DNA of 64,000 nt from Thermodesulfovibrionales bacterium (GTDB taxonomy: Bacteria > Nitrospirota > Thermodesulfovibrionia > Thermodesulfovibrionales > SM23-35): positions 3,823 to 67,822 of the forward strand of contig JASEEX010000002.1 in assembly GCA_030019415.1 (NCBI GenBank). Direction: 5' to 3'. Under the pieces are notes generated by a model. It had not been told where the DNA came from, searched no databases, and saw only the letters and a list, made by a program, of their open reading frames with translations. Below, one piece after another: positions 5,537-32,801 of this stretch. Each line of letters begins with the position of its first letter. The stretch's first letter is position 1. The position numbers were made by a program, and so were the translations under genes.

Positions 5537-6234
5537 ATCTTGCCTTCAAAATAGTAGCCTATTCCGCGCAAAGTCTTGATATACACTGGGTTAGCCGGGT
5601 CTTCCTCAATATGAGCCCTTAACCTCCTGATATGCACATCAACTGTTCTCAGTTCAACAAAAGCCTCATCACGCCATATCGCATCAAGGAACTGATCCCG
5701 ACTGAATACCTTTCCTCTCTTTTCAGCAAGATAAAGAAGGAGCTTAAACTCTGTTGCACTTAGTTTTACAGGCTTTCCTTTAATAGAAACTGTATATCTC
5801 TCTCTGTTTATTTCCAATTCTCCAATTTTCAGTATCTTCTCGGTTACAGGTTTTTCTGCTGACCTCCTGAGGACAGCTTTTACCCTTGTTACGAGTTCCC
5901 TGGGACTGAACGGCTTTATCATATAGTCATCGGCCCCCATCTCAAGGCCGAGTATCCTGTCGACTTCTTCTCCCTTTGCAGTAAGCATGATAATGGGCAA
6001 TCCTTCTGTTTTTGGATCGTTTCGTAGAATTCGACAGAGTTCCATACCCTGTAGCCCCGGGAGCATGAGATCGAGGACGATGAGGTCATATCTACCCTTT
6101 TTTATCTTATTGATGGCAACCTCACCATCTAAGGCTGAGTCCACAATAAAGCCTTCTTTCTTTAGATTATATGATACAAGCTCAACAAGGTCAGCCTCAT
6201 CATCAACAACGAGGATATGTTCTGGTGGATCCAT
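5533..6234 (-). CDS. phoB: OmpR/PhoB-family response regulator
   Basis: Receiver domain (ILVVDDE ... DLIVLDLMLPG ... MLTAK) plus a winged-helix C-terminus (LTATEFKLLLYLA ... RTVDVHIRRLR ... IKTLRGIGY). It is adjacent to phoR and pst. Confidence 0.8.
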   Translation of the reverse strand: MDPPEHILVVDDEADLVELVSYNLKKEGFIVDSALDGEVAINKIKKGRYDLIVLDLMLPGLQGMELCRILRNDPKTEGLPIIMLTAKGEEVDRILGLEMGADDYMIKPFSPRELVTRVKAVLRRSAEKPVTEKILKIGELEINRERYTVSIKGKPVKLSATEFKLLLYLAEKRGKVFSRDQFLDAIWRDEAFVELRTVDVHIRRLRAHIEEDPANPVYIKTLRGIGYYFEGKM

Positions 6235-7328
6235 TACTTTTCAAAAGCTTGTTCTTGTAACAGTTTCTTTATCATCTTATTATCAACTCCTCTATAGATT
6301 CTTACACTTCCGATCTTTTCAGGCAAAATAAACTTCAACTCCCCTGCAACCGCCTTTTTGTCAAGCTCCATGGATGAAAGGATGTGCCTTATGTCTATAT
6401 CTGCTGGCATTTCTGAGGGTAGACCATATGATTCTACAAGAGACTTTATCCTTAATACCTTATTATTGTCAATAAAGGTGAGCATGCTGGAGAGCCTTGC
6501 CTCAAGGCACATCCCGATCGCAACCGCCTCTCCGTGAAGATATTTCTTGTATTCTGTAACAGTCTCTATTGCGTGTCCGGTAGTATGGCCATAATTCAAG
6601 ATTACTCTTAACCCTGACTCTCTTTCATCCCTTGATACTACCTCTGCCTTTATCTCACATGAACGTTTAATAATATGAGTTAGAGCATCCCTATCAAGGC
6701 TAAGAATTTTGTTTTTGTTGACTCCCAGAAAATCAAATAATTTCTCATCCCATATCACACCATATTTAATCACCTCAGCAAGACCAGCCAATAATTCTTT
6801 TTTAGGCAGGGTTTTAAGTGTCTCCACATCAATCCAGACAAGCCTTGGCTGCCAGAAAGTGCCTATCATATTCTTACCGAGTTTGTGGTTAACACCTGTC
6901 TTACCCCCAACAGAACTATCCACCTGAGCAAGAAGCGTTGTCGGGACCTGGATATAGGAAATTCCTCTCATATATGTAGATGCTGCAAATCCTGTTATAT
7001 CACCTATAACTCCACCTCCGAGTGCGATAAGTGCTGATGACCTATCGAGTTTATGCTTGAGAAGCTCGTCATATATATGCTGCACCCAAAGAAGATCCTT
7101 GTATTCCTCACCATCAGGTATAGTTACAGTAAGTAGATCAAACCCTGCCTTCTTTACCGAGTCTGATACACATTTACCATAAAGTGAAAAAACAGTTGGA
7201 TTACTCACTATGGCAATCCTCGGGCTCAGGCCAAAGGATTTGAGGTTATCCCCGATCCCTCTGAGGATATCGCTTCCAATAACTATATCATAACTTCTCT
7301 CAGCAAGTTCAACCCTTATCTTTTCCAT
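6234..7328 (-). CDS. aroB: 3-dehydroquinate synthase
   Basis: Typical AroB motifs: GGGVIGDITGFAASTYMRGI, VPTTLLAQVDSSVGGKTGVN, and HTTGHAIE ... HGEAVAIGM. I prefer the ATG at 7328; the track ORF begins at a TTG at 7343. Confidence 0.9.
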   Translation of the reverse strand: MEKIRVELAERSYDIVIGSDILRGIGDNLKSFGLSPRIAIVSNPTVFSLYGKCVSDSVKKAGFDLLTVTIPDGEEYKDLLWVQHIYDELLKHKLDRSSALIALGGGVIGDITGFAASTYMRGISYIQVPTTLLAQVDSSVGGKTGVNHKLGKNMIGTFWQPRLVWIDVETLKTLPKKELLAGLAEVIKYGVIWDEKLFDFLGVNKNKILSLDRDALTHIIKRSCEIKAEVVSRDERESGLRVILNYGHTTGHAIETVTEYKKYLHGEAVAIGMCLEARLSSMLTFIDNNKVLRIKSLVESYGLPSEMPADIDIRHILSSMELDKKAVAGELKFILPEKIGSVRIYRGVDNKMIKKLLQEQAFEK

Positions 7329-7387
7329 ATTTTTAAGCCCCAAAAATTCTTAAGAATCGTTTTTGCTATTTGCATATTCTGCCTATA

Positions 7388-7540: not shown

Positions 7541-8962
7541 TCATTTAATGCTTATAGCAGGCAAGTCTTCTTTAAATTCACTGTCCATGAGATTAATTTG
7601 TTTCCTTATGATGCCTCTTTTCTCTAAGGCAGGTTTTAGACAAAAGTTTTCAAAATCTGTTTTATCAATCTCATCTGGGCTTTTAACATTTGGAAACAAA
7701 AGTTTTAAATAAGCAGTTGCTAATCTCTTTATTGCAATAGTATCTCGTGTATCAGCATTTTTTGGCACATCTAATAACTCACTCACTATTGCTGCAAAAT
7801 CAGATATTTCTCGCAAAGAGTGTAGGGTTTCAGAAAAGTATTCAACATTCAATGTATAGCCTCTTACTTTTAGACTTTCATTTATTCGTGGTAGTCTCCA
7901 ACCTTCAATAAACCCATGAAAACGGTCTAATAAAGCGGAGTCCCGGAAAAAATCAGGTAATTCAGTGAAATACTTCCTATTGAGAGGCTTTTTATCGCTA
8001 TCTAAGGGAATGTTGCCTAATAATATCAAACCAGCGGCAGATGTCTGCCTCACATTGGCTACAGTAAAAATTCCTGATTCCAAATAATTTTTTAAGGCAC
8101 CTCTCAATTCATTTTCATCAGAAAACCTTATGGTTTGAATTTCGTCCATCGAAACAAAATCATACATCGTGATTATGCCCATCGTATTTTTAGATACATC
8201 ATAAAATAACTTTGCTCTTGTAACAGTACCTCCGCTTATTAACCAGCCATATTTGCTTATGTTGCCAAAAATATAAGACTTCCCTGTTCCCTTTGGGGCA
8301 AGCTCTACTATGTTAAGTCGGGGCTCTACAAGTATCAGCAATCGGCTGATAAATAATAATTTTTGAGTTAAGCTATCAAAACCGTCAGGATTATATTCCA
8401 TTGACCTGATTAGTAAATCCATCCATTCTTCAGTGTTATATTCTTTTCTAACATTTCTAAAATATTCAACATCTACATCATAAGGCTTGAATGGCTTATA
8501 ATCCGTAAGTTCAATTACACCCTTTTCTTTCCCTTGAGGTGGAGTATATGCTAATCTTGCTACTCCCCAAACTTCGCCGCCCTTTAATTCAGCATGTCTT
8601 TTAGCTATATAAGTAGGAACCTTGCCTTCATTTAACTTTATACCCATATCTGGGATAGAAAACCTCAATACGCCGGTTTTTACTTCAGGCTCAATAACAA
8701 GCCTGGTTAATATAACAATTTCTTCGGCATCGTTTATCATTCTGCCCTTAATCTTGCTATTTTTCTGAGGGATGTGGTCATTGAGAAATCTCAATAAGGC
8801 TTCTGAATCAAGTGTCCCATCAATATCTGTAAACTTTTTTATTAACCAATCCTTTATAAAAGAAGGAATATTTTTGCCAGAAAATACACTATATCTTTCA
8901 GGAATTTTATAAACTGATTCCTCAGGGAAGGTATCTCTAATCTTTTTGTCTAATTCGTTCAT
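7541..8962 (-). CDS. brxL: BrxL-like AAA+ ATPase (short form, no recognisable Lon-protease domain)
   Basis: 473 aa with Walker A ELAPKGTGKSY and Walker B-like DFVSMDEIQ. The N-terminus (IPSFIKDWLIKKF) is of the type I recall for the BrxL / TIGR02688-like family. It has an ATGA overlap with pglZ. Confidence 0.7.
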   Translation of the reverse strand: MNELDKKIRDTFPEESVYKIPERYSVFSGKNIPSFIKDWLIKKFTDIDGTLDSEALLRFLNDHIPQKNSKIKGRMINDAEEIVILTRLVIEPEVKTGVLRFSIPDMGIKLNEGKVPTYIAKRHAELKGGEVWGVARLAYTPPQGKEKGVIELTDYKPFKPYDVDVEYFRNVRKEYNTEEWMDLLIRSMEYNPDGFDSLTQKLLFISRLLILVEPRLNIVELAPKGTGKSYIFGNISKYGWLISGGTVTRAKLFYDVSKNTMGIITMYDFVSMDEIQTIRFSDENELRGALKNYLESGIFTVANVRQTSAAGLILLGNIPLDSDKKPLNRKYFTELPDFFRDSALLDRFHGFIEGWRLPRINESLKVRGYTLNVEYFSETLHSLREISDFAAIVSELLDVPKNADTRDTIAIKRLATAYLKLLFPNVKSPDEIDKTDFENFCLKPALEKRGIIRKQINLMDSEFKEDLPAISIK

Positions 8963-11307
8963 AGTAAGTCTCTTTCCTTCATGCCACCTAGAATTTCAAT
9001 TGTAATAGAATATTCCTGTTCATTAATTTTTACTTTCATATTATATTTCCCTGGCTTGTAGCCTCCTAAGTCTGCGCACCATTTTTGTTGAGAATTATCA
9101 AACTCCAGACTTAAAGGCATTCCTTTTGGGTCTATCAATAAAGGTTTTCTATCAGGTTTCGGGGTTATGGACAAGAATAGGATAGGTTCTCTTCTACTAA
9201 TCATAATTTCATTTGGGGTTATTTCGTATGTTATATCAGTTATATGTCTTCTTTTAGAAACAATGACAACCGGGACTAGAACTTCTTCAGGTGCGGCGCC
9301 ACCATGAACCTCCCTAACGGGCTTTCTGTAAAGAGATGAATATCTTAAAGCTATCAGTGCCCTAGTTTTATTGCATTCAGGATTGTCAATACTATGGCTG
9401 ACCAAATCATCATCATCTAAGAAATCATTATCTATCCACATACATCTTCCATCATGATGAGCATTTTCAAAATTATAAACCTTTAGATTTCTTTTCAATC
9501 TTGCTAAGGCTGTAGAGCCATGGTCAGAGACAATTGCAATCCTCTCATTTTTATAGACGGATATATTCCTTTGAAGAATCCTTCTTATCAATTCAATATC
9601 CCTTAAGAGACTATCTGGATGCCTGTAAGGTTCCGCTGAATGTACATCTCTGTCATAGTCTCTGATGTATAGCGCATTTTCAAAACGATTACAGTCTGTA
9701 ATCGTTGGAAGATAAGCCCGCGCAATGTACTTTTTTTCAATAAATAATCCCATCTCATTCTCAATAAGGCAGATTATAAAAGGAAACCACTCCATTCCCA
9801 ATGCGTCTATCCAGATAACCTTATCAATATTCTCCCTCTTCAATATCTGGTGGGCAGGTTCAAACGCATAATACCATTTGTAGAAGACATCCTTATTTTT
9901 GTTTCTTTCATTAAGAAAATCATTCAGCAAAGGTGATATGGCGTTCTTCAATTTTGATGCCCTGTACTCTTTAAAATAGTCCAACACCCATCGGTTGTCT
10001 TCATTCAGGTTATCAGGCATGATATCCTGGAGGTAATAGTAAAGCCCTTTATATTTCTCACTGATAGATTGCATATCTGTTTCTCCATTGAGAAACATTT
10101 CAAGTAATATTCTTCTTTCGCATTGCGCAATACCGGTTAAGAGGTTCAATTTTTCTTTATCATCTTTAATTTCTTTTAATGTACTGGTGAGTCTATTTTC
10201 ATAAGAAACAGATATTTCTTTATCTGCATAAAATCTTTCCAATAGTCTTTTTCTTCCTGAATATAACCGAGAATTGTTATCTTTAAGATCAAATATCTTG
10301 AACCAAATACCTTCTAAAAACTCATCGTTATCAATCGTTTCTAAAGAACTCATAACCTGAGAGATATATGTATTATTCCATTCATTCTTAACTGATACAT
10401 ACTGCTTTAATAACCATTTTTTAAAATTGGTATCAGAAAGTGTCCAGAGATTTGCTATATCATCAATATTGACAGTTAATACCCCGAAAACTTTTACTAT
10501 CGCTTCTTCTAAGGTTCTGAACCCAGTTTCAGTAAAAATCTCAAAAAGTTTATTCCAGAAGGTTGTATCCTCATAGCGAAATATTATGGGCAGATCTATC
10601 CCGTAAACTTTCAAAAAAAGAGCTTTTGTATTTCTAATCTCTGCGATGTCAAAAGCGTTGTCAGGCAATCTATTGGGATATAAATGTACGAGGGTACTGG
10701 AAAAACATATTAGTCTTTCAATGTTATCCCTTTTCCACAGATTCAGCCAGTCTTTAGTATTGTTGATGATCTCAGCATTTGGGGCATATGCCACAGAAAA
10801 GTCTGTGATATAGATTATAATTTTGGATTGGTTGTCAGAAAGTACTTGCCACAGCGGAGCCCATTGGTCCTTGCGGTGAAAGCCGTCAAAAAACTCGGTT
10901 TCGAATCTTTCATAAATGCCAATTAGAGGGATATAAATCCTTCTTCGATGGTTTTTGTTGTTTTCAATTTCGGAAATGGTATTAAACAGGGAAGAAAAGT
11001 CTTCTCTGGAATAAAACCTTGCTATTTCCGAAAGGGGTAAAATAATAAGATCCTTTTTGTTATCCAATCCTTTGATGATTTCTATCAAATCTTCTGCTGA
11101 TATCCAACCATCAGAGTGTGGCAAAAAATCGGAAAGTTCTATTTTCCCAACTCCAAGCTGATCAAATGTTTTCACCATATCCTTCAACATATTCATCGAA
11201 GGCAAAAAGATTAATCTGGCAGGATATCGGCTAACAAGGGAACTTCTTGACTTCTTATCTGATTCAATTTCGACGAGTAGTTCATCAACTGAGTTGAAAA
11301 TCTTCAT
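8959..11307 (-). CDS. pglZ: PglZ-domain protein (alkaline-phosphatase superfamily) of a BREX-like system
   Basis: 782 aa. The C-terminal half carries VIWIDALGMEWFPF and RIAIVSDHGS, the metal-site motifs of the PglZ/alkaline-phosphatase fold. It is translationally coupled to brxL. Confidence 0.75.
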   Translation of the reverse strand: MKIFNSVDELLVEIESDKKSRSSLVSRYPARLIFLPSMNMLKDMVKTFDQLGVGKIELSDFLPHSDGWISAEDLIEIIKGLDNKKDLIILPLSEIARFYSREDFSSLFNTISEIENNKNHRRRIYIPLIGIYERFETEFFDGFHRKDQWAPLWQVLSDNQSKIIIYITDFSVAYAPNAEIINNTKDWLNLWKRDNIERLICFSSTLVHLYPNRLPDNAFDIAEIRNTKALFLKVYGIDLPIIFRYEDTTFWNKLFEIFTETGFRTLEEAIVKVFGVLTVNIDDIANLWTLSDTNFKKWLLKQYVSVKNEWNNTYISQVMSSLETIDNDEFLEGIWFKIFDLKDNNSRLYSGRKRLLERFYADKEISVSYENRLTSTLKEIKDDKEKLNLLTGIAQCERRILLEMFLNGETDMQSISEKYKGLYYYLQDIMPDNLNEDNRWVLDYFKEYRASKLKNAISPLLNDFLNERNKNKDVFYKWYYAFEPAHQILKRENIDKVIWIDALGMEWFPFIICLIENEMGLFIEKKYIARAYLPTITDCNRFENALYIRDYDRDVHSAEPYRHPDSLLRDIELIRRILQRNISVYKNERIAIVSDHGSTALARLKRNLKVYNFENAHHDGRCMWIDNDFLDDDDLVSHSIDNPECNKTRALIALRYSSLYRKPVREVHGGAAPEEVLVPVVIVSKRRHITDITYEITPNEIMISRREPILFLSITPKPDRKPLLIDPKGMPLSLEFDNSQQKWCADLGGYKPGKYNMKVKINEQEYSITIEILGGMKERDLL

Positions 11308-11321
11308 TCCTTTTCTATTTC

Positions 11322-11554
11322 TTAAACCTTTTCCAAAAGCTCAAAATATTCTTCCCTGCTTATACCAGATGTCCTCAAGTTGTTTTTAATGATAAACACT
11401 GGTACCTCCTACCAGTCAGGTATATAACCACCGGCCTTTGTATTCAGGGTCTCGTATAAACATAATGGTCACCTTCTACTCGCACACATGTAAATCCTGC
11501 CATTTCGAATACTTTCCTTAGCTTCCATGCCGGTACAGGAACTATCTTGGGCAT
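11322..11554 (-). pseudogene. hicA: Decayed hicA (YcfA-family mRNA-interferase toxin)
   Basis: My translation gives MPKIVPVPAWKLRKVFEMAGFTCVRVEGDHYVYTRP, a TGA stop, then IQRPVVI. After a frame change it continues IPDW, a TAG stop, then EVPVFIIKNNLRTSGISREEYFELLEKV. That is two in-frame stops plus an indel (233 nt, not a multiple of 3). The pattern matches HicA/YcfA proteins. Confidence 0.6.
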
Positions 11555-11557
11555 AAA

Positions 11558-11821
11558 TTATATGCTCACAAGTTCTGTAGCAACCAGTTTCGGAGGTATC
11601 CATTTGCCACTCGCATCTTTTTTGTAACTTGATTCTTCCAGTATGCCCTCGAGTGTTCCCATCTTCTCAGCTTCCTCAATAAAGAGTCTTACAGCGGTTT
11701 TAAGCATTTCCTTGGCATGTTCTACATTATTGCCACAACTTGAAATATCAAGCTCCGGACAGTAGGCCACAAAGGTTTCATTTTCCCTGAAAACAATCAC
11801 ATCAAATTCTATAGGTGTCAT
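11558..11821 (-). CDS. hicB: HicB-like antitoxin-fold protein (UPF0150-type, no obvious DNA-binding tail)
   Basis: 87 aa beginning MTPIEFDVIVFRENETFVAYCPELDISSCGNNVEHAKEMLKTAVRLFIEE, a typical HicB N-terminal fold. AAGGAGG lies 6 nt before the ATG. It sits 13 nt after the brxC stop. Confidence 0.6.
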   Translation of the reverse strand: MTPIEFDVIVFRENETFVAYCPELDISSCGNNVEHAKEMLKTAVRLFIEEAEKMGTLEGILEESSYKKDASGKWIPPKLVATELVSI

Positions 11822-11834
11822 AAATGCCTCCTTC

Positions 11835-14800
11835 TTATTGCGAATTCAAATATTTATCTATTAAATAGGCCAAATCAGGCTTAGCATCCAATATCTTTAA
11901 GAGTATGGGTTTTAGATCTCCTGAATAGGACATCAACCTCTCTTTTACCTGTTCCTTATAAATTATTTTATCAACATCATTAACGGGTGGTTTTTCTTTG
12001 ATTTCGCCAGGAATACCTGTTTCAGGTGGGAGCGTCTGTTTTTTAATCCACCAGTCTTTTACCTTGCTTTCAACCTTGTCTATCTCCCACTGAGCCACCT
12101 CTTCCTGCATATTCTTGTATAGATAATCAATAATCTCACCAATATCGGAATAAAAAATACTCACGGAATCAATATACTGCAAAAACTGAATAAATCCCTG
12201 CTGGATTTTATCTTTCTTTAAAGTTAATTCCAGATCCAGCTTGTTATTTTTTACTGCTTCCAAAATCCTTTTTACATCGTCATAACCTATTTCACTATCA
12301 ACGTTTTTTGTAAGTATGAAAATCTCATCAACGGCATTTTTCACGCCATCCTTCACATCCAGATATTTGACCGACCATATGGGAAGTCCCATATCTTTGA
12401 CGAGCTTTCTTATTTCCCATCTCAAATCATTTAAACTGTTAACATTATCAAAGGAGAAAATATCTCCGAGCGTTTCTACAAGCTCCTTTTCTTCTAATGT
12501 TCCAAGCCTTACTTCTAATTTGCTCGATGAGATTCCTTCCTGCCAGCATCTGAATAGTTCGGTAGTCTTATCCTTCATCATGCTCTGTGTAATGGGTCTA
12601 CCGGTTCCAGCCTCATAAAGTTTTCCAATGTATTTTCTCAATACATATCCCATTAAGGCCATATGTATCATATTGGAATAAATGCCATAAGGTAGCTCGC
12701 TTAAGAACCTCAATCTATCTCCGAGATTAAAGTTAGGTTGATCCTGAAGGTCATTAATTTTGCCCTCAACTTCCCCTGAAATCTTTACAAGAGGATGCTC
12801 TTTATCCGCAGTTTCTTTTATCTCCAGATTTTCCTCCACTACATAATTATTTCCCCTTTTGTCTTTCAGAATACACCGTAAATATGATTCCTGACCCCTT
12901 GAAGTTTTTGATGAAATATCATCTCTCGAATTTGCAAACAGAAATATCTCGATAGACTTTTGGGCCATTTTGTATGTCCATACGTTTTGATTCTCTCTTG
13001 CCTTTTGTAGATTTTCCAATCCATATCTAAAAATACGAGGGGAAATCTGTTCATTGATAAGGTTCCCGATTTTGCTCATCAGTTCCAGCTTCTCTTCCCC
13101 ATTGAGTATAACAGTCACATAGCCGCTTCTGATACTGTTTATCCAGTCATCCACAACCTTCTTTGCAAAGTCTTGATTTGCAATGGCATCATCATTGAAG
13201 TTATGATTGCGTGCCACAACACTTTCAGCATAAAAAGTAATAAATCTGTTGTAGCGGTCTTTTCCGAAAGGCTTATCAATAAAAATGAATATACTATGCT
13301 TGCTGTCTTCCTCTTTTGCGAGTTGTTTTATAGTGTTTTTTATGACTGAGGCTTCAGCATCATCTTTCTGCAAAAAGATCGCAAGATGCAAAGAATAGGT
13401 CTTTCTGAAGCCTTTTGAAAGTTTGCTTCGTAAAATATGTTCTTTTTCACCTACCCAGTAAAAATTGACCTCAGTAGTTCTCAAGATACCGTTTGTGATC
13501 AAACTGGTTAGATTTGTTTTTGAGGCAGGATTGAACTCCAATACCTTTGTTATATCTTCATATTCCAAGAGTGCTTTTTGTTTTTCGGCTTCTATCTCTT
13601 TTACGGGCGGAATAGAAAAAGATACAAGGTAAAGTTCATCAGGGGTTTTTCTGATAATCTCTTTTTTATCAAAATAACCAAGTGCTCTATCAACATCTGG
13701 TTCACAAAATGTTCCTATAAATAAAGACTGTATGTTACCAACCGAAGGGAGTACCAGACTCTGTTGAGCTTCTCCCACAGAAACCATTCTGTATAAGGCA
13801 TTTAGCAATAATGTGCCTTTAAAAACTGCGATGTATTGTTTGCCTAAACTTTCTATATCCTTGATGTGCAATTTAAACTTTTCCAAGATTGGTAAAAACT
13901 TATCTGAATTATCCTTCTCAAACTCTTCTATAAAGTAATCCCATAGATAATCAGCGCTAATAACAGGTGACTTATCATCTGTTTCATTATTCAAGAAATT
14001 CAAAAATCCTTTATCTTTATCGTTCAGAAAACTAAAAATACTTCTTTCGGTCGAGCCTAAATTTCTCGCAATAAAGGTTGCCAGATAGGCAGCGTAGGGA
14101 TGGATAGGGAAAAGATTCTTAACGTTATTTTTTGCAGATACACCCTCATTACCAGAAATTCTTTCTAAAAGTTCATTTAACTGGGGGTTAGCAGAGAAAA
14201 ATCTGTCTTTGAGATCATTCCACTTTATTTCATCTTTCTTTTGTATGGCAGCAGAGATAATGTGGTAAGTTGTAATAGGCTCCATTGAATAGTCTTTGAA
14301 GTGAAATCTGTCAAAGACCTTTTTTACCTCCTCATCGGCAAATCCTGCCTGGTGAGGTGTTCTGTGGCTAATAAGGTACAAAAAGATATTGCCATTTTTG
14401 CTTAGCTCTGCCATATCCTGCAGGGGAGACAAAAATTCGTTTCTGTTTGAATGCTGTAAAACTGCCGAGAATTCATCCCAGAAAATCATTAAATGGTTCG
14501 CAATTCCCTTATCACTTAATTCCTTTGCTATTTCTAAAAGCCATTTATCTATTTTGGAATATATAAAATAGCCGCCTTTCTTGTTAATAATAGATTCAAG
14601 AACCTTCAATATTGTTATATCTCTATTTTTTAACCGATTCACCAAATCGGATGGGCTGTTAACATACATTCTCAGTTCTTGGTTGCTTTTTATTATTTGA
14701 TTCCAGTCTATATGCAAGGGATTATCTTTTATCTGGGCAACCATCTTTTCAAAATCACTTTCTGTCTGAACTTCTACGTTATTTGCCTTCAGTGTATCCT

Positions 14801-15206
14801 TTAAAGCTTTCTCCACAGCCAGAGAAAAGGTTCTGTTATCTGTGATGTTTGCTATGCCCTTGAGAACTATAGGTAAAACCTTTTTTGTTTTCCTGAAATT
14901 TCTTACTTTTTCCCTTAACTGGACATCAAGAGTTTTAAGGTATTCTTCAATATGGCCAGAATCATCCCAGAGCAAATGTTTGACAACAGCAGATGCATGA
15001 CTTTTGCCGGTTCCATAAGCTCCCTGAATTAGGATTGATTTTCGTTCAGTAGACTGGCTTGCTTCAAGGCTTCCCACTGTGGTTTTTAGAATATTGTTAA
15101 ACTTCTCATTAGGTATGAACCGCATCCAGTAGGTTTTATGTTCATTTGTGAGGTCATAATAGGATTCAAAGTAATCATGCAACCCAATGATTTCAGAATA
15201 TCTCAT
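11835..15206 (-). CDS. brxC: BrxC/PglY-like large P-loop ATPase
   Basis: 1123 aa with Walker A ILIQGAYGTGKSH and Walker B HLMIFWDEFS. Its size and position (after brxP, before pglZ) fit BREX BrxC. Confidence 0.65.
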   Translation of the reverse strand: MRYSEIIGLHDYFESYYDLTNEHKTYWMRFIPNEKFNNILKTTVGSLEASQSTERKSILIQGAYGTGKSHASAVVKHLLWDDSGHIEEYLKTLDVQLREKVRNFRKTKKVLPIVLKGIANITDNRTFSLAVEKALKDTLKANNVEVQTESDFEKMVAQIKDNPLHIDWNQIIKSNQELRMYVNSPSDLVNRLKNRDITILKVLESIINKKGGYFIYSKIDKWLLEIAKELSDKGIANHLMIFWDEFSAVLQHSNRNEFLSPLQDMAELSKNGNIFLYLISHRTPHQAGFADEEVKKVFDRFHFKDYSMEPITTYHIISAAIQKKDEIKWNDLKDRFFSANPQLNELLERISGNEGVSAKNNVKNLFPIHPYAAYLATFIARNLGSTERSIFSFLNDKDKGFLNFLNNETDDKSPVISADYLWDYFIEEFEKDNSDKFLPILEKFKLHIKDIESLGKQYIAVFKGTLLLNALYRMVSVGEAQQSLVLPSVGNIQSLFIGTFCEPDVDRALGYFDKKEIIRKTPDELYLVSFSIPPVKEIEAEKQKALLEYEDITKVLEFNPASKTNLTSLITNGILRTTEVNFYWVGEKEHILRSKLSKGFRKTYSLHLAIFLQKDDAEASVIKNTIKQLAKEEDSKHSIFIFIDKPFGKDRYNRFITFYAESVVARNHNFNDDAIANQDFAKKVVDDWINSIRSGYVTVILNGEEKLELMSKIGNLINEQISPRIFRYGLENLQKARENQNVWTYKMAQKSIEIFLFANSRDDISSKTSRGQESYLRCILKDKRGNNYVVEENLEIKETADKEHPLVKISGEVEGKINDLQDQPNFNLGDRLRFLSELPYGIYSNMIHMALMGYVLRKYIGKLYEAGTGRPITQSMMKDKTTELFRCWQEGISSSKLEVRLGTLEEKELVETLGDIFSFDNVNSLNDLRWEIRKLVKDMGLPIWSVKYLDVKDGVKNAVDEIFILTKNVDSEIGYDDVKRILEAVKNNKLDLELTLKKDKIQQGFIQFLQYIDSVSIFYSDIGEIIDYLYKNMQEEVAQWEIDKVESKVKDWWIKKQTLPPETGIPGEIKEKPPVNDVDKIIYKEQVKERLMSYSGDLKPILLKILDAKPDLAYLIDKYLNSQ

Positions 15207-17606
15207 CTACGCCTCCAGACTTTCAGGATAAATCTCTTCGCTTAATAATTCCAATACATCAATATGATTTAAATCTTCTCTTAAATGGATATTATCGAGA
15301 CCTTTGATCAGGTCTGCCTTCAATATGCCATTTTTGTTTTCCTGAAGATAGCGAAGGATATTCTCAAGCTTTCCCTTTGATATGCCAAAAAGACGGTATG
15401 GCCCTTCTTTCTGTTCATCCCTGTAAAATTCAGAAATGGTCAAGTCACGCCTATTTTTACTTTCAGCATATCTGTAAAGAGAATATGCGATTGCTATGGG
15501 ATGGACATCGTCAGTTCCGAGTTTTTGGATGTTACGGGTATTCCCTCGTTTTTCTATGATTCCCAATTTCAATTCATTGCCCAATGGTGTTGTTTCCAGC
15601 ATATTTGCTAAAGCATCTATGCCGCTTGAAATTGTATTCTTGCTACCTGAAAAACCACGGTTCAGTCCTAACTGCACAAGTTCACCTGTTGAATATGAAT
15701 TGCCGAAATCAACATCTGATATGTACCATTTTATTAGACTGGAATTATGGCTAAGATTTATCCAGATTATTTCCCAGGATAATCGTTCATTCTTAAAAAA
15801 TACTGTTTTAAGCTTATGACCCAATCTTGTTATTTTGTTTTCTTTTGTTTTAAGCACATCGGCATCTCTTAGCCATACTATTACTGCATAAGCTTGAATA
15901 GGCCCAAGATTCTTGGTAGAAAACCATTTGTCTGGATCAGTTAAAAAAGAAAATAACCATTCCCTTCTAAGTCCAAATGTCTTATATTTTGTAAAACCTC
16001 CTGATTTGTTTGCCATATTTTTACCCCCCCCCAGAATCATCTTATCAGCCTGTGCCTTAAAACATCCTTTCTCTGCATGGTATAAACAATTTCCACAATG
16101 GTTACATAACGTTGTATCTATCTTTACATAAGGACTAACTTTTAAGGCACCTGTCGGGCATTCTACCTCACATGTGCCACAGTGAATACAATAGGTGGCT
16201 TTGTATAGAATTCTTTCGATCTTATTTTTAAAAATAATGTCATTATTTATTTTCCCTATTTTTACTAAAATCTTATCATCTTTATTCTTTATTACTTCGA
16301 AGTCAAAAATTTTATCTCTTACCTTTATTTCCCCATATTTCTTGTCATCTTCTTTTTTAAAATATATTTCCCCTATCGTCCTTGACCATTCGATAAAATT
16401 TTCATTGGGGTTTGAAATAAGTGCTTCTAAACGTTGGTCAGACGAGAAAAAATCAATTTTGGTTCCGTTAGAGTTTATTCCACCCCATCCCGGCTTTTTT
16501 TTCCATGCCCCCTCGCAAATATATTCCAAAGCTTTATTTTTTTCTGGAACTATCATATCAACATATTCCTTAAGAATTCCCAAGTATTTAGAAGAAACCT
16601 CTGAGTATTTGTAGTTTATAATGTACTCAGACCACTCGGACCCAAAAGGACAGATGCCGCAACCAATCCTGCTCAATCCATATCTGTAAGCCTCATTTAT
16701 TTTTAATTCACGATAGAATGTATACAAAAATACCTCTGCAGAGTTCCAATATCTTATTACCTCAGCATTGATTTGATTTGTATGTTTTGTCCCCTTTGAA
16801 ATTCTAGTGTAACTTTCCCTTTTTGCACTTTCTTCAGCTCTCACTCCCTCAAATGTTAAGATCTTTGGCTGCTTCTTCCCATTAAACATGCAATTAATCA
16901 GACTCATATAGGGTGCTGTCTTATGAACTGTACAACACCACCTGTGTATTCTGCTCGGTGGCCCAAATATCCGCCATGTTTTCTCAGATGGCAATCGGCC
17001 CTTTGCGGTTTCAAACCGTAAACCGGCATAAAGTTTTTGGTAATATGCTTTAGTTTCTTCTACATTTTCATAAGTAGAAGGGAGTTCCATATCTGTGTCT
17101 GTAAAAACTACAATATATTCATCCGGCGGGATTATTCTGCTTACTATATCGAGAACTACCTGCGAGTCTTTACCTCCACTAAATGAAACCGCGAAACAAT
17201 TTACCTTGTTCCTACCCCTTTTATACGACTTGTAAGTATGCTCAACAAAATCCATCGCCTCATTTTCCAATACACGAAGAGCTTCCTGATTCTTTCTGAC
17301 CATTAAGTCTACATTAATAGGTTCAATGATTAAATCTTTCCCGTTCTCCGTAATGTTTATTTGTGGGGACTCAAAAATATTTCCACCTTTAGCCTCTGCA
17401 ACCCATTCCCCCCTGCAGTAATATCTCCTTCCATTTGCCCATAATAATGGTTTTTTTGTTCTCGGACAGTTCCAGAATTTATTGAATTTCAGAAGGTCCA
17501 ACTCCTCAAAAAAAACAGGGCGTGGAAGAATTAAATTATTAATCTCGGTGGGTTTATCTGTTAATATCACACCGTTGATTTCCTTATCCCATATTACTTT
17601 ATACAT
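15207..17606 (-). CDS. brxP: BrxP-like PAPS-reductase-domain protein fused to a 2x[4Fe-4S] ferredoxin module
   Basis: 799 aa with PP-loop AVSFSGGKDSQVV and further PAPS-reductase-family sequence (FEGVRAEES, RWCCTVHK). The ferredoxin clusters are YCIHCGTCEVECPTGAL and CNHCGNCLYHAEKGC. The roughly 125-aa N-terminal region and roughly 280-aa C-terminal region show no motif I recognise. Confidence 0.7.
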   Translation of the reverse strand: MYKVIWDKEINGVILTDKPTEINNLILPRPVFFEELDLLKFNKFWNCPRTKKPLLWANGRRYYCRGEWVAEAKGGNIFESPQINITENGKDLIIEPINVDLMVRKNQEALRVLENEAMDFVEHTYKSYKRGRNKVNCFAVSFSGGKDSQVVLDIVSRIIPPDEYIVVFTDTDMELPSTYENVEETKAYYQKLYAGLRFETAKGRLPSEKTWRIFGPPSRIHRWCCTVHKTAPYMSLINCMFNGKKQPKILTFEGVRAEESAKRESYTRISKGTKHTNQINAEVIRYWNSAEVFLYTFYRELKINEAYRYGLSRIGCGICPFGSEWSEYIINYKYSEVSSKYLGILKEYVDMIVPEKNKALEYICEGAWKKKPGWGGINSNGTKIDFFSSDQRLEALISNPNENFIEWSRTIGEIYFKKEDDKKYGEIKVRDKIFDFEVIKNKDDKILVKIGKINNDIIFKNKIERILYKATYCIHCGTCEVECPTGALKVSPYVKIDTTLCNHCGNCLYHAEKGCFKAQADKMILGGGKNMANKSGGFTKYKTFGLRREWLFSFLTDPDKWFSTKNLGPIQAYAVIVWLRDADVLKTKENKITRLGHKLKTVFFKNERLSWEIIWINLSHNSSLIKWYISDVDFGNSYSTGELVQLGLNRGFSGSKNTISSGIDALANMLETTPLGNELKLGIIEKRGNTRNIQKLGTDDVHPIAIAYSLYRYAESKNRRDLTISEFYRDEQKEGPYRLFGISKGKLENILRYLQENKNGILKADLIKGLDNIHLREDLNHIDVLELLSEEIYPESLEA

Positions 17607-17791
17607 TTATGACCTGTCCTATAGATATTAAAGATATTTATAATGTGTGCTTTTCTTTCTCCATCACTGTTCTACTTTCGTTGATGGTTTCGATAGTCTG
17701 AAAGGGCAGGGAAATCCGCTCGACCTCTGTCCTTTTCCCCTGCCAGTATAAGCCAGTTGGAATATTATTGTTCTCTCTCGGCATAGACTCG

Positions 17792-18052
17792 TTACGCTAC
17801 CTGGAGTGTCAGCCCTTCAATTCTCGATGCCCGTAACCTCTCAACTTTTACATAAACTATTTGTTGACCCGCCTCTTTATTAGCTTCAGAGAGTTCAATA
17901 TTTTTCGCTGCAAGTTCTTTATCATATTCAGGAAGTAACACAATCATGGCATTGTCAGGTATCTTTTCTTCTATCTCGGGATGTTCAAGAATATATAATT
18001 CAAACTCTGTAGAAAGCTGCTGGTTTTTTCTGAACATTTCTTCTCTTGTCAT
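17792..18052 (-). CDS. Hypothetical small acidic protein (86 aa), downstream partner of an overlapping gene pair
   Basis: The ORF has an ATGA overlap (18049-18052) with the upstream 104-aa ORF. I recognise no motif. The architecture resembles a toxin-antitoxin pair. Confidence 0.45.
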   Translation of the reverse strand: MTREEMFRKNQQLSTEFELYILEHPEIEEKIPDNAMIVLLPEYDKELAAKNIELSEANKEAGQQIVYVKVERLRASRIEGLTLQVA

Positions 18053-18363
18053 CTCTTTATCCTCCTTAAATATCTCTCTTTATATCTTTCCCAGTTTTCA
18101 TTTATATCAATATCAGCCAACGTTAATGCCTCATTGAGATCTGCTGCTCCCCAAAATATCTTTTCTTTACTGCCATCCGGATTTAATAAGTCTTTGTGAG
18201 CATATCCATGAGCAGTGTCATATCGAACAATAGGCACCCATTTGCCTTCAAATAATGTTTCGTATTGAACTACAAATCCTGTCACTTTGTCCTTTTCGGT
18301 TATATGTTCATGCCGTTTTCTATCAATATCTGATAGCATAAAGACATAGGATTTTTTCATCAC
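18049..18363 (-). CDS. Hypothetical small basic protein (104 aa), upstream partner of an overlapping gene pair
   Basis: The ORF contains the His-rich core RYDTAHGYAHKD. It is coupled to the 86-aa ORF. Function unknown. Confidence 0.45.
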   Translation of the reverse strand: MMKKSYVFMLSDIDRKRHEHITEKDKVTGFVVQYETLFEGKWVPIVRYDTAHGYAHKDLLNPDGSKEKIFWGAADLNEALTLADIDINENWERYKERYLRRIKR

Positions 18364-18387
18364 ATCGTATTGTCCATCATAAGTTAT

Positions 18388-18606
<219 letters not shown>

Positions 18607-18776: not shown

Positions 18777-19286
18777 TTATTCCCTAATGCTAATTTCCTT
18801 AATTATCTCCTCTGCAATTTGGAGAGGGGTTTTGTCATCTGTGCCAATCATGATATCTGCCTTCTCATAAAAGGGCCTCCTATAATTTAATAGTTCCTTT
18901 ACCCTTCCGAAAGGGTTTTCTACCTGAAGCAGGGGCCTATTACTATTATGGCTCGTCCTTTTGAGGATTGTCTCGGGTGTTGCCATAAGACAGACAATGA
19001 CACCATTTTTCCTCATGGCACCCATATTTTCCTGCTTTAATACAGCACCACCACCTGTAGAGATAATGACGTTTTTATTTTCAGAAACCTTTTTTATCAT
19101 TTCCGTTTCTATCTCCCTAAACCTCGGCTCACCGAACTTTTTGAATATCTCATTGATGGTCATCTCCTGGGATTTCTCTATCTCTGTATCCACATCTATG
19201 AGTCCCATATTGAGAAGCCTCGAGAGCTCTCTGCCTACTGCAGTCTTACCAGTTCCCATAAAGCCAGTAAGGACAATGTTCTTCAT
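18777..19286 (-). CDS. aroK: Shikimate kinase
   Basis: P-loop LTGFMGTGKTAVGREL, plus GEPRFREIE and ISTGGGAV. 169 aa. Confidence 0.9.
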   Translation of the reverse strand: MKNIVLTGFMGTGKTAVGRELSRLLNMGLIDVDTEIEKSQEMTINEIFKKFGEPRFREIETEMIKKVSENKNVIISTGGGAVLKQENMGAMRKNGVIVCLMATPETILKRTSHNSNRPLLQVENPFGRVKELLNYRRPFYEKADIMIGTDDKTPLQIAEEIIKEISIRE

Positions 19287-32703: not shown

Positions 32704-32801
32704 GGGAGTGTATGGGGTTCTGGTGTCCCCCCTGGACTTCAAATCCAGTGTTTCCTGCCAAAATCGGGAAGGGTGGGTTCGATTCCCACACACTCCCGCC
32801 A
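32704..32801 (+). tRNA. selC: tRNA-Sec (anticodon UCA)
   Basis: 8-bp acceptor stem gggagtgt/acactccc, anticodon stem ctgga/tccag with loop cTTCAaa (anticodon TCA). It has a long variable arm, T arm gtggg-ttcgatt-cccac, discriminator g and an encoded CCA. Total 98 nt. Confidence 0.9.

What the first reader, a model, noticed from the sequence alone, without database searches (positions are those of the whole stretch)
11322..11821. HicB-like gene and a decayed hicA embedded between brxC and pglZ
Seen: 13 nt after the brxC stop, an 87-aa HicB-fold ORF with a strong AAGGAGG is followed 3 nt later by a hicA-like reading frame. That frame carries a TGA after codon 36, a frame change, and a TAG. The residual sequence (GDHYVYTRP / RPVVI / PDW / EVPVFIIKNNLRTSGISREEYFELLEKV) is still clearly YcfA/HicA-like. 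The pglZ gene starts 15 nt downstream.

Inference: the toxin has been inactivated while the antitoxin-fold gene is retained inside the operon. Either a TA module hitch-hiked and is decaying, or the HicB-like protein has been recruited as a regulator or accessory of the BREX-like system. As far as I recall, a TA pair splitting brxC from pglZ is not part of the canonical cassette.
Basis: partly seen in the sequence, partly recalled or inferred. Interest (0 to 1): 0.6.

Follow-up and report, generated by a model that had tools for sequence, protein, structure and literature searches.

The report
Decaying hicBA toxin-antitoxin inside BREX operon
A small toxin-antitoxin gene pair (hicBA) sits between two genes of a type 4 BREX phage-defence operon and its toxin gene is now dead, which is the ordinary way such pairs decay; the less ordinary part is that related BREX operons carry intact or different toxin-antitoxin pairs at exactly the same junction.

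Summary
All genes are on the minus strand. brxP-brxC-[hicB-ψhicA]-pglZ-brxL is a complete type 4 BREX cassette, inserted between aroK and aroB.

hicB (87 aa) is intact. It has a HicB-like partial RNase H fold and no DNA-binding domain, which fits the "Class 2" hicBA type.

hicA is a pseudogene with three lesions relative to intact relatives that are 92-94% identical in DNA: Gly37 GGA→TGA, a 2-nt TA insertion, and His48 CAT→TAG.

New here:
- The closest cassettes (PglZ 85% and 75% identical) carry the same hicBA, intact, at the same junction.
- A more distant cassette carries an unrelated hicBA there. Two others carry an MNT-HEPN pair, one with a truncated toxin. Five cassettes are empty.
- So brxC|pglZ has captured RNase-type toxin-antitoxin modules at least three times.
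- Three BREX deletion remnants all keep hicB.

Toxin-first erosion is the known norm for these modules. The "HicB recruited as regulator" idea is not supported: HicB has no DNA-binding domain, and orphan hicB also persists without BREX.

RNase modules embedded in BREX loci were described in 2026, but HicA was not among them. I rate this a new member of a known kind, of modest interest.

The parts
15207..17606 (-). brxP (PAPS-reductase family protein, 799 aa), first gene of the type 4 BREX operon
   Evidence: PADLOC BrxP PDLC02510, E = 2.7e-281.
11835..15206 (-). brxC/pglY ATPase (1123 aa); its stop TAA is at 11837-11835
   Evidence: PADLOC BrxC PDLC02472, E = 3.5e-298, full length.
11822..11834 (-). 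13-nt brxC-hicB spacer holding the Shine-Dalgarno AAGGAGG (11833-11827). There is no room for a promoter or operator of its own.
   Evidence: Sequence. No sigma-70-like site lies upstream of hicB nearer than 14587 on this strand. Similarity to generic hicBA modules begins at about 11833.
11558..11821 (-). hicB, intact, 87 aa. A small antitoxin with a partial RNase H fold and no DNA-binding domain (Class 2 hicBA type).
   Evidence: 688 homologues, the best 120 listed being 76-92% identical; several are named 'HicB family antitoxin' by NCBI. All invariant residues are kept. AF2 pLDDT 94.6, topology beta-beta-beta-alpha-alpha. Foldseek top hits are 2yzt and 6g1c_B HicB N-domain. No Pfam or NCBIfam hit.
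11322..11554 (-). hicA pseudogene. The ancestral gene encoded a 76-aa HicA mRNA-interferase toxin.
   Evidence: The stitched translation scores 33.1 bits on PF07927. Intact orthologues in L001, L007, L009 and L013 score 29.5-32.2 bits. Lineage-specific substitutions are 8/228 nt here against 5/651 nt in hicB plus the pglZ 5' end, Fisher p = 0.007.
11444..11446 (-). Lesion 1: nonsense TGA at codon 37 (GGA Gly in all intact relatives)
11421..11425 (-). Lesion 2: ATATA where relatives have ATA. This is a 2-nt TA insertion that shifts the frame after Val-Val-Ile (codon 44).
11409..11411 (-). Lesion 3: TAG at codon 48 (CAT His in all intact relatives; two substitutions). As a by-product it creates AGGAGG (11410-11405), 5 nt before the GTG at 11399 that opens a 25-aa ORF.
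8959..11307 (-). pglZ (782 aa); its ATG lies 14 nt after the hicA stop
   Evidence: PADLOC PglZ PDLC02542, E = 1.3e-136.
7541..8962 (-). brxL (473 aa), overlapping the pglZ stop by 4 nt
   Evidence: PADLOC BrxL, E = 2.8e-222. NCBIfam TIGR02688, 485 bits.

Best explanation
This is a Class 2 hicBA type II toxin-antitoxin module. The small HicB antitoxin, which lacks a DNA-binding domain, is encoded first. The HicA RNase toxin follows 3 nt later.

The module was captured once in the brxC-pglZ spacer of one lineage of type 4 (phosphorothioate-type) BREX operons and has been inherited with the cassette. It has no promoter space of its own, so it is almost certainly transcribed as part of the BREX operon (inferred).

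In this genome hicA has been killed by two nonsense changes and a 2-nt insertion, while hicB is still intact. This is the usual toxin-first erosion of a toxin-antitoxin module. Losing the toxin is harmless, whereas losing the antitoxin first would be lethal, so hicB is simply what is left.

Shown: the identity of the genes, the lesions, intact orthologues at the same junction, a single origin of the BREX-linked clade, and excess lineage-specific change in hicA.

Inferred: co-transcription, former toxicity of HicA and its neutralisation by HicB, and that hicB currently has no BREX-specific role.
For: - The BREX type 4 gene set is complete.
- The stitched hicA matches PF07927 above the cut-off.
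- DNA identity to intact hicBA is 92-94%, and the three lesions are mapped against five intact relatives.
- The closest cassettes, L007/L008 (PglZ 85%) and L009 (PglZ 75%), have hicB plus an intact 76-aa hicA between brxC and pglZ.
- BREX-linked hicB copies and the remnants form one clade nested inside a large non-BREX family.
- Pairwise dN/dS is 0.04-0.19 for both genes, so most of their history was under constraint.
- Window-specific changes are 8/228 nt in hicA against 5/651 nt in hicB plus the pglZ 5' end, p = 0.007.
- About 9 of about 55 generic family members also show a truncated or frameshifted hicA with an intact hicB.
- No promoter-like site lies upstream of hicB.
- Literature: Class 2 hicBA with a small HicB lacking a DNA-binding domain, and solitary hicB genes, are described in PMC10865869. 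Toxin-only pseudogenisation outnumbers antitoxin-only 185 to 8 in PMC13617665.
Against: - HicB matches no curated HicB profile, and the Foldseek E-values are not significant.
- No expression or toxicity data exist.
- The three lesions cluster within 38 nt, which is denser than simple neutral decay of a young pseudogene would predict. This is unexplained.
- Recurrent capture of toxin-antitoxin modules at this one junction hints that such modules may do something for BREX rather than being pure hitch-hikers.
- I cannot rule out assembly error without reads.
Confidence: 0.8

Rival explanations
1. The toxin-antitoxin module is, or in the ancestor was, a functional part of BREX. On this view an operon-coupled RNase toxin acts as a backup abortive-infection effector. 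It would fire when a phage shuts down host transcription or blocks BREX and the labile antitoxin runs out. This genome would simply have lost that layer.
For: - Among 11 distinct type 4 cassettes sampled, 6 carry a toxin-antitoxin pair exactly between brxC and pglZ, in the operon's orientation and tightly spaced.
- There are three unrelated occupants: hicBA-1 (window, L007/8, L009), hicBA-2 (L081, HicB only 40% identical) and MNT-HEPN (L079, L080).
- Trees place occupied and empty cassettes in the same clades, implying at least three independent gains.
- All the toxins are RNases.
- PMC12839542 proposes HEPN, PIN and Schlafen RNases embedded in BREX loci as backup suicide effectors.
Against: - Occupancy is patchy and five cassettes are empty.
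- Toxins are eroded in 2 of the 6 occupied cassettes (window; L079 HEPN nonsense).
- The same hicBA family lives mostly outside BREX.
- Repeated acquisition of toxin-antitoxin modules at one permissive site is also seen for purely selfish modules (PMC13617665).
- The sample is small and was not drawn at random.
Confidence: 0.25
2. HicB has been recruited as a regulator or accessory protein of BREX, and is retained by selection after toxin loss.
For: - hicB is intact and keeps all family-invariant residues.
- hicB also survives in L074 and L075 after hicA truncation.
- There is a precedent for a HicB with its own activity when coupled to Cas13a (PMC13448076).
Against: - The model has no DNA-binding domain.
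- L074 and L075 keep hicB although BREX is gone, so retention does not depend on BREX.
- Orphan hicB also occurs in non-BREX contexts.
- Window-specific hicB changes are 2 non-synonymous and 0 synonymous. In L074 they are 5 and 5, which looks like relaxed rather than renewed constraint.
Confidence: 0.06
3. hicA is in fact intact or still decoded. Either the lesions are sequencing or assembly errors, or they are bypassed by recoding (UGA as selenocysteine or read-through, plus programmed frameshifting).
For: - The window probably comes from an environmental assembly, since its nearest relatives are metagenomic.
- A tRNA-Sec gene lies in the window at 32704-32801.
Against: - There are three independent lesions of two kinds. 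Two are substitutions, and one of those needs two base changes. The indel is not in a homopolymer.
- Recoding would need three separate events within 38 nt.
- The UGA replaces Gly, not Cys.
- hicA also shows about four times more lineage-specific substitutions than its neighbours.
Confidence: 0.04

Closest known systems
Class 2 hicBA toxin-antitoxin modules (Gerdes 2024, mBio, PMC10865869)
   Same: The gene order is hicB then hicA. HicB is small (87 aa, within the 63-103 codon range) with a partial RNase H fold and no recognisable DNA-binding domain. HicA is a PF07927 toxin. The module is very compact (3-nt gap) and lies in a defence island. Solitary hicB genes are also noted there.
   Different: Here the module lies inside another system's operon with only 13 nt upstream, so it has no promoter of its own. 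The toxin gene is dead. A BREX context is not mentioned in that paper ('BREX' occurs 0 times).
Auxiliary or 'backup' endoRNase effectors embedded in BREX loci (NAR 2026, PMC12839542)
   Same: [quoted passage not shown] These include HEPN, sometimes with MNT in a toxin-antitoxin-like arrangement. The MNT-HEPN pairs I found in L079 and L080 fit this description.
Canonical type 4 BREX (brxP-brxC-pglZ-brxL; PMC12914056, PMC12839542)
   Same: All four core genes are present, full length and in the canonical order.
   Different: A two-gene insert splits brxC from pglZ. Canonical examples have these genes abutting: L010, L011, L082, L084 and Methanosphaera plasmid pNP174.
Toxin-first erosion of chromosomal toxin-antitoxin systems (MBE 2026, PMC13617665)
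   Same: The toxin is pseudogenised with the antitoxin intact. Independent acquisition at the same genomic location is described, and the linkage does not preserve the neighbourhood. BREX remnants L001, L074 and L075 illustrate the last point.
   Different: That work concerns Photorhabdus chromosomal spots and found that toxin-antitoxin systems rarely cluster with defence systems. Here the module is inside a defence operon.
Cas13a-HicAB integrated system (Nat Commun 2026, PMC13448076)
   Same: A HicA/HicB pair is physically integrated with another immune system, and orphan hicA or hicB genes occur near it.
   Different: The partner system and the layout differ (hicA-CRISPR-hicB-cas13a). There is no evidence here of any HicB-BREX interaction.

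Membership tests
HicA toxin (Pfam PF07927) | Profile match above the curated cut-off | tested here: met
   The stitched window translation scores 33.1 bits against a cut-off of 27. The N-terminal 36-aa fragment alone scores 21 bits, below the cut-off. Intact orthologues score 29.5-38.8 bits.
HicA toxin (Pfam PF07927) | Intact reading frame encoding the full domain (about 60-76 aa) | tested here: not met
   TGA at codon 37, a 2-nt insertion after codon 44 and TAG at codon 48. It is therefore filed as a pseudogene of the family, not a functional member.
HicA toxin (Pfam PF07927) | Conserved G-x-H motif with the catalytic histidine (from my knowledge of E. coli and B. pseudomallei HicA) | tested here: met
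   GDH at residues 28-30 is retained in the N-terminal fragment and in all relatives. Catalysis itself was not tested.
HicA toxin (Pfam PF07927) | Toxicity (mRNA cleavage) neutralised by the adjacent HicB | not testable with these tools
   Needs a kill/rescue assay.
HicB antitoxin, small Class 2 type | Match to a curated HicB profile (Pfam or NCBIfam) | tested here: not met
   No family at E <= 1 in Pfam or NCBIfam, and none in PADLOC. Homologues carry no precomputed Pfam domain. NCBI nevertheless names several of them 'HicB family antitoxin'.
HicB antitoxin, small Class 2 type | Partial RNase H fold (beta-beta-beta-alpha...) | tested here: met
   AF2 model with pLDDT 94.6 and elements E9-13, E16-21, E26-30, H33-54, H57-63. 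Foldseek ranks 2yzt (probability 0.99) and the B. pseudomallei HicB N-domain 6g1c_B (probability 0.98, rmsd 0.9 over 52 columns) first. Their E-values are only 0.13-0.67. The profile hit to 2yzt has E = 0.068.
HicB antitoxin, small Class 2 type | Encoded immediately upstream of hicA; 63-103 codons; no DNA-binding domain | tested here: met
   A 3-nt gap here, and gaps of a few to about 20 nt in more than 40 related loci. The protein is 87 aa, with no HTH or RHH element in the model. The class definition is from PMC10865869.
Type 4 BREX | brxP, brxC, pglZ and brxL together in one direction | tested here: met
   PADLOC hits for all four with E-values from 1e-136 to 1e-298, contiguous on the minus strand. 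BrxL also matches TIGR02688.
Type 4 BREX | Phosphorothioate modification and phage exclusion | not testable with these tools
   Needs mass spectrometry or sequencing of the modification, and phage assays.
Classical autoregulated type II toxin-antitoxin operon | Own promoter/operator bound by the antitoxin's DNA-binding domain | tested here: not met
   Only 13 nt separate the brxC stop from hicB, and no promoter-like site is present. HicB has no DNA-binding domain.

The most novel reading that the evidence does not exclude
The brxC|pglZ junction of type 4 BREX operons may be a selected 'slot' for RNase toxin-antitoxin modules (HicBA, MNT-HEPN). These would work as an operon-coupled, second-line abortive-infection trigger. 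Because toxin and labile antitoxin are made only from the BREX transcript, a phage that silences or cripples BREX expression would release the RNase. The window would then show a lineage that has switched this layer off.
Probability: 0.2. Interest if true: 0.6.

Novelty: new member of a known kind. Interest (0 to 1): 0.35.

Why it matters
By itself the locus is an ordinary eroding toxin-antitoxin module.

The comparative series around it is more useful. It contains the same junction in several states:
- with intact hicBA;
- with dead hicA;
- with a different hicBA;
- with MNT-HEPN, both intact and truncated;
- empty;
- as three independent BREX deletion remnants that all keep hicB.

This is a compact natural experiment on how toxin-antitoxin modules enter, ride in, outlive and decay within a defence operon. 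It also yields a concrete, testable candidate (the L007-type cassette) for asking whether operon-embedded RNase modules add a backup layer to the still poorly understood type 4, phosphorothioate-based BREX.

Tried and rejected
1. Curated profiles for HicB (Pfam, NCBIfam, PADLOC) gave no hit. I had to rely on fold and gene context instead.
2. A genome-contig scan with PglZ returned only the pglZ fragment of one Nitrospirae MAG. No full orthologue was found, and the window's own genome is not in that collection.
3. The exact window HicB is not on record.
4. A viral-contig scan with a HicB alignment found nothing, so there is no evidence that phages carry this module.
5. A plasmid search with PglZ found only one archaeal type 4 cassette, and its junction is empty.
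6. A terminator-like hairpin, ACTGGTA-GGAGG-TACCAGT at 11416-11398, spans the TAG lesion. Its folding energy is unremarkable (z = -1.1) and it is absent in L007. I rejected it as a functional element.
7. I considered selenocysteine or read-through decoding of the TGA because a tRNA-Sec gene is in the window. I rejected it because three separate recoding events would be needed and the ancestral codon is Gly.
8. I looked for target-site duplications flanking the insert. Only a 6-nt TAAGAA repeat is present, and similar sequence follows hicA in non-BREX copies, so I do not take it as evidence of transposition.
I redid it with database homologues.

Full report
**1. What is in the sequence**

Everything in this region is encoded on the minus strand. 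The order is as follows.
- brxC is 11835-15206; its stop TAA is at 11837-11835.
- A 13-nt spacer follows. AAGGAGG lies at 11833-11827, 5 nt before the start codon of the next gene.
- An 87-aa ORF follows (11558-11821).
- A 3-nt gap follows, then an ATG at 11554.
- That frame reads MPKIVPVPAWKLRKVFEMAGFTCVRVEGDHYVYTRP and stops at TGA (11446-11444).
- HicA-like sequence continues (IQRPVVI), changes frame, meets TAG (11411-11409), and ends ...EVPVFIIKNNLRTSGISREEYFELLEKV with TAA at 11324-11322.
- pglZ starts at 11307.

**2. The surrounding system**

PADLOC profiles identify the neighbours with E-values between 1e-136 and 1e-298:
- BrxP, 15207-17606
- BrxC, 11835-15206
- PglZ, 8959-11307
- BrxL, 7541-8962

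NCBIfam agrees for BrxL. This is a complete type 4 BREX cassette, the type recently shown to make phosphorothioate DNA (PMC12914056).

The island lies between shikimate kinase (aroK, 18777-19286) and 3-dehydroquinate synthase (aroB, 6234-7343). Its G+C content is 34-38%, against 41-42% in the flanks.

**3. Identity of the two small genes**

*hicA.*
- The stitched translation matches Pfam HicA_toxin (PF07927) at 33.1 bits (cut-off 27). The N-terminal fragment alone gives E = 3.5e-4.

*hicB.*
- The 87-aa ORF matches no Pfam, NCBIfam or PADLOC profile.
- It has 688 homologues. The best 120 listed are 76-92% identical, and NCBI names several of them 'HicB family antitoxin'.
- An AlphaFold model built on 27 homologues is confident (pLDDT 94.6). 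It has three beta-strands, a long helix and a short helix.
- Foldseek ranks T. thermophilus TTHA1756 (2yzt, probability 0.99) and the N-terminal domain of B. pseudomallei HicB (6g1c_B, probability 0.98, rmsd 0.9 Å over 52 columns) first. The E-values are not significant for so small a domain.
- A sequence profile also finds 2yzt marginally (E = 0.068).
- The model has no HTH or RHH domain.

Gene order, protein size and the missing DNA-binding domain match the 'Class 2 hicBA' type described as the commonest HicA context by Gerdes (PMC10865869).

**4. The lesions**

The closest HicB homologue (P0001, 92% identical) is followed 3 nt later by an intact 76-aa hicA. DNA alignment with five intact relatives (L001, L007, L009, L013, L016/L019) shows three lesions in the window:
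- GGA (Gly37) has become TGA.
- ATA has become ATATA, a 2-nt insertion after Val-Val-Ile.
- CAT (His48) has become TAG, which needs two substitutions.

Outside these lesions the gene is well preserved. Pairwise dN/dS against intact relatives is 0.04-0.08, so most of its history was under purifying selection.

On the window's own branch, hicA carries 8 unique substitutions in 228 nt. hicB has 2 in 261 nt and the first 390 nt of pglZ have 3. The contrast of hicA against the other two is significant (Fisher p = 0.007). This is what a fairly recent pseudogene looks like.

The three lesions are of different kinds and none lies in a homopolymer, so assembly error is unlikely. I could not check reads.

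**5. Orthologous cassettes**

PglZ homologues were traced to their contigs.
- L007/L008 (PglZ 85%, BrxC 89% identical) and L009 (PglZ 75%, BrxC 88%) have the same hicB plus an intact 76-aa hicA between brxC and pglZ.
- L081 (PglZ 54%) has a different pair at the same place. Its HicB-like protein is 89 aa and only 40% identical. Its 76-aa HicA is 55% identical (38.8 bits) and appears to start at TTG.
- L079 and L080 (PglZ 56-57%) have an MNT nucleotidyltransferase plus a HEPN pair there. In L079 the HEPN toxin is cut at codon 96 of 130 by a nonsense change.
- L010, L011/L012, L082/L083, L084 and the Methanosphaera plasmid pNP174 have nothing between brxC and pglZ.

Simple neighbour-joining trees of BrxC and PglZ agree with each other. 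They group the window, L007 and L009 together. They group L011 (empty) with L079 and L080, and L082 (empty) with L081. That implies at least three independent gains of a toxin-antitoxin module at this one junction.

A tree of hicB DNA puts the BREX-linked copies and the remnants in a single clade, nested within a large family. That family otherwise shows no BREX genes in its flanks. L081 falls far outside this clade.

The sample has 11 distinct cassettes and was not drawn at random. The frequencies are therefore indicative only.

**6. Remnants**

Three kinds of contig show what happens when this cassette decays.
- L001-L006 and L013 come from a Nitrospirae MAG and related samples. They carry intact hicBA followed by only the first ~390 nt of pglZ, 93.5% identical to the window, in an unrelated neighbourhood. 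The fragment evolves like a pseudogene, with 4 synonymous and 14 non-synonymous unique changes.
- L074 shares the window's aroK neighbourhood. It keeps about 62 codons of brxP joined directly to hicB. Its hicA is cut after about 40 nt and is followed by other defence-like genes.
- L075 shares the aroB side. It keeps hicB and about 28 codons of hicA, joined to the last ~80 codons of brxL.

In every case hicB survives, and hicA is either intact together with it or truncated. This is what the logic of a toxin-antitoxin pair predicts.

Within the generic family, about 9 of about 55 loci also have a truncated or frameshifted hicA next to an intact hicB. Some of those frameshifts could be assembly errors.

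Toxin-first pseudogenisation is the documented norm: 185 toxin-only cases against 8 antitoxin-only in Photorhabdus (PMC13617665).

**7. How it most likely works**

The module has only 13 nt upstream, no promoter-like site and an antitoxin without a DNA-binding domain. It is therefore most likely expressed from the BREX operon transcript (inference).

In the ancestral state HicA would be an RNase toxin held in check by HicB. This is inferred from the family; nothing was tested here. In this genome the toxin is dead and hicB is a leftover.

I find no support for HicB as a BREX regulator or accessory:
- it has no DNA-binding domain;
- it is retained just as well where BREX is gone (L074, L075);
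- its window-specific changes are 2 non-synonymous and 0 synonymous, and in L074 they are 5 and 5.

The main open question is whether these modules are pure hitch-hikers in a permissive spacer or whether they give BREX a backup abortive-infection layer. A 2026 survey proposed that role for HEPN, PIN and Schlafen RNases embedded in BREX loci (PMC12839542). That survey does not report HicA.

The recurrence at one junction argues for the backup-layer reading. The patchiness, the eroded toxins and the mostly non-BREX life of the family argue against it. I put this reading at about 0.2-0.25.

**8. Verdict**

In kind this is already known, both as toxin-antitoxin erosion and as RNase modules embedded in BREX. 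The HicBA occupant and the recurrent brxC|pglZ slot in type 4 cassettes were not found in the papers I searched. I file it as a new member of a known kind, with modest interest.

Noticed in passing
L079:1781-2399 and L080:3391-4114: In two type 4 BREX cassettes (PglZ 56-57% identical to the window's), an MNT nucleotidyltransferase plus HEPN toxin-antitoxin pair occupies the same brxC|pglZ junction. In L079 the HEPN gene is truncated at codon 96 of 130 by a nonsense change. This is a second case of toxin erosion in this slot.
   Followed up: yes
L081:5595-6097: A third occupant of the junction: a HicB-like 89-aa gene (40% identical) plus a HicA. The contig's gene caller lists HicA as 60 aa, but the similarity extends to a 76-aa protein that appears to start at TTG (5867). 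It falls far outside the window's hicBA clade.
   Followed up: yes
L001:5986-6905 (also L002-L006, L013): Intact hicBA plus only the first ~390 nt of pglZ, 93.5% identical to the window, sit in an unrelated neighbourhood of a Nitrospirae MAG, with an ABC1 kinase downstream. This is either a BREX remnant or a fragment that moved out of a cassette together with the toxin-antitoxin module. The pglZ piece evolves like a pseudogene.
   Followed up: partly
L074:5618-10144: A relative with the same aroK neighbourhood has the brxP 5' end (about 62 codons) joined in frame to hicB. Its hicA is cut after about 40 nt. After that come a methyltransferase-like fragment, a RadC-like gene, an AAA ATPase and an S8-like peptidase instead of BREX. 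The aroK-aroB site therefore looks like a defence-island hot spot with turnover.
   Followed up: partly
L075:1-1580: A relative with the same aroB neighbourhood has a deletion that joins hicA codon ~28 to the last ~80 codons of brxL. This removes pglZ while hicB is kept.
   Followed up: partly
window 11397-11411 (minus strand): The CAT→TAG lesion turns TGAGG into AGGAGG (11410-11405), 5 nt upstream of GTG 11399. That GTG opens a 25-codon ORF (the HicA C-terminus) ending 14 nt before the pglZ start. It might reload ribosomes and limit polarity on pglZ after the premature stops. This is pure inference.
   Followed up: no
window 17792-18576 (minus strand): The island also holds a lone DUF433 gene (18388-18576, E = 5e-27). 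In L074 the DUF433 gene is followed by a DUF5615/PIN-like gene that is missing here. There is also an overlapping DUF7718 (18049-18363) and DUF5647 (17792-18052) pair of unknown function. These may be further toxin-antitoxin-like modules or their remnants.
   Followed up: partly
window 17638-17784 (minus strand): A 48-codon ORF lies just upstream of brxP (…LYWQGKRTEVERISLPFQTIETINES…). The surrounding DNA is 88% identical in L074. From memory it resembles the N-terminus of Mod-type DNA methyltransferases. It has no Pfam hit. It could be a remnant or a leader.
   Followed up: no
window 7541-17606 versus L009, L010: The cassettes are mosaic. With L010, BrxL is 88% identical but PglZ only 55% and BrxC 59%. 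With L009, BrxC is 88% but BrxP only 61%. This suggests recombination between cassettes, with BrxC and PglZ the fast-changing parts.
   Followed up: no
window 32704-32801 (plus strand): A selenocysteine tRNA gene (Rfam 75 bits; ARAGORN anticodon TCA). I considered and rejected it as an explanation for the in-frame TGA in hicA.
   Followed up: partly
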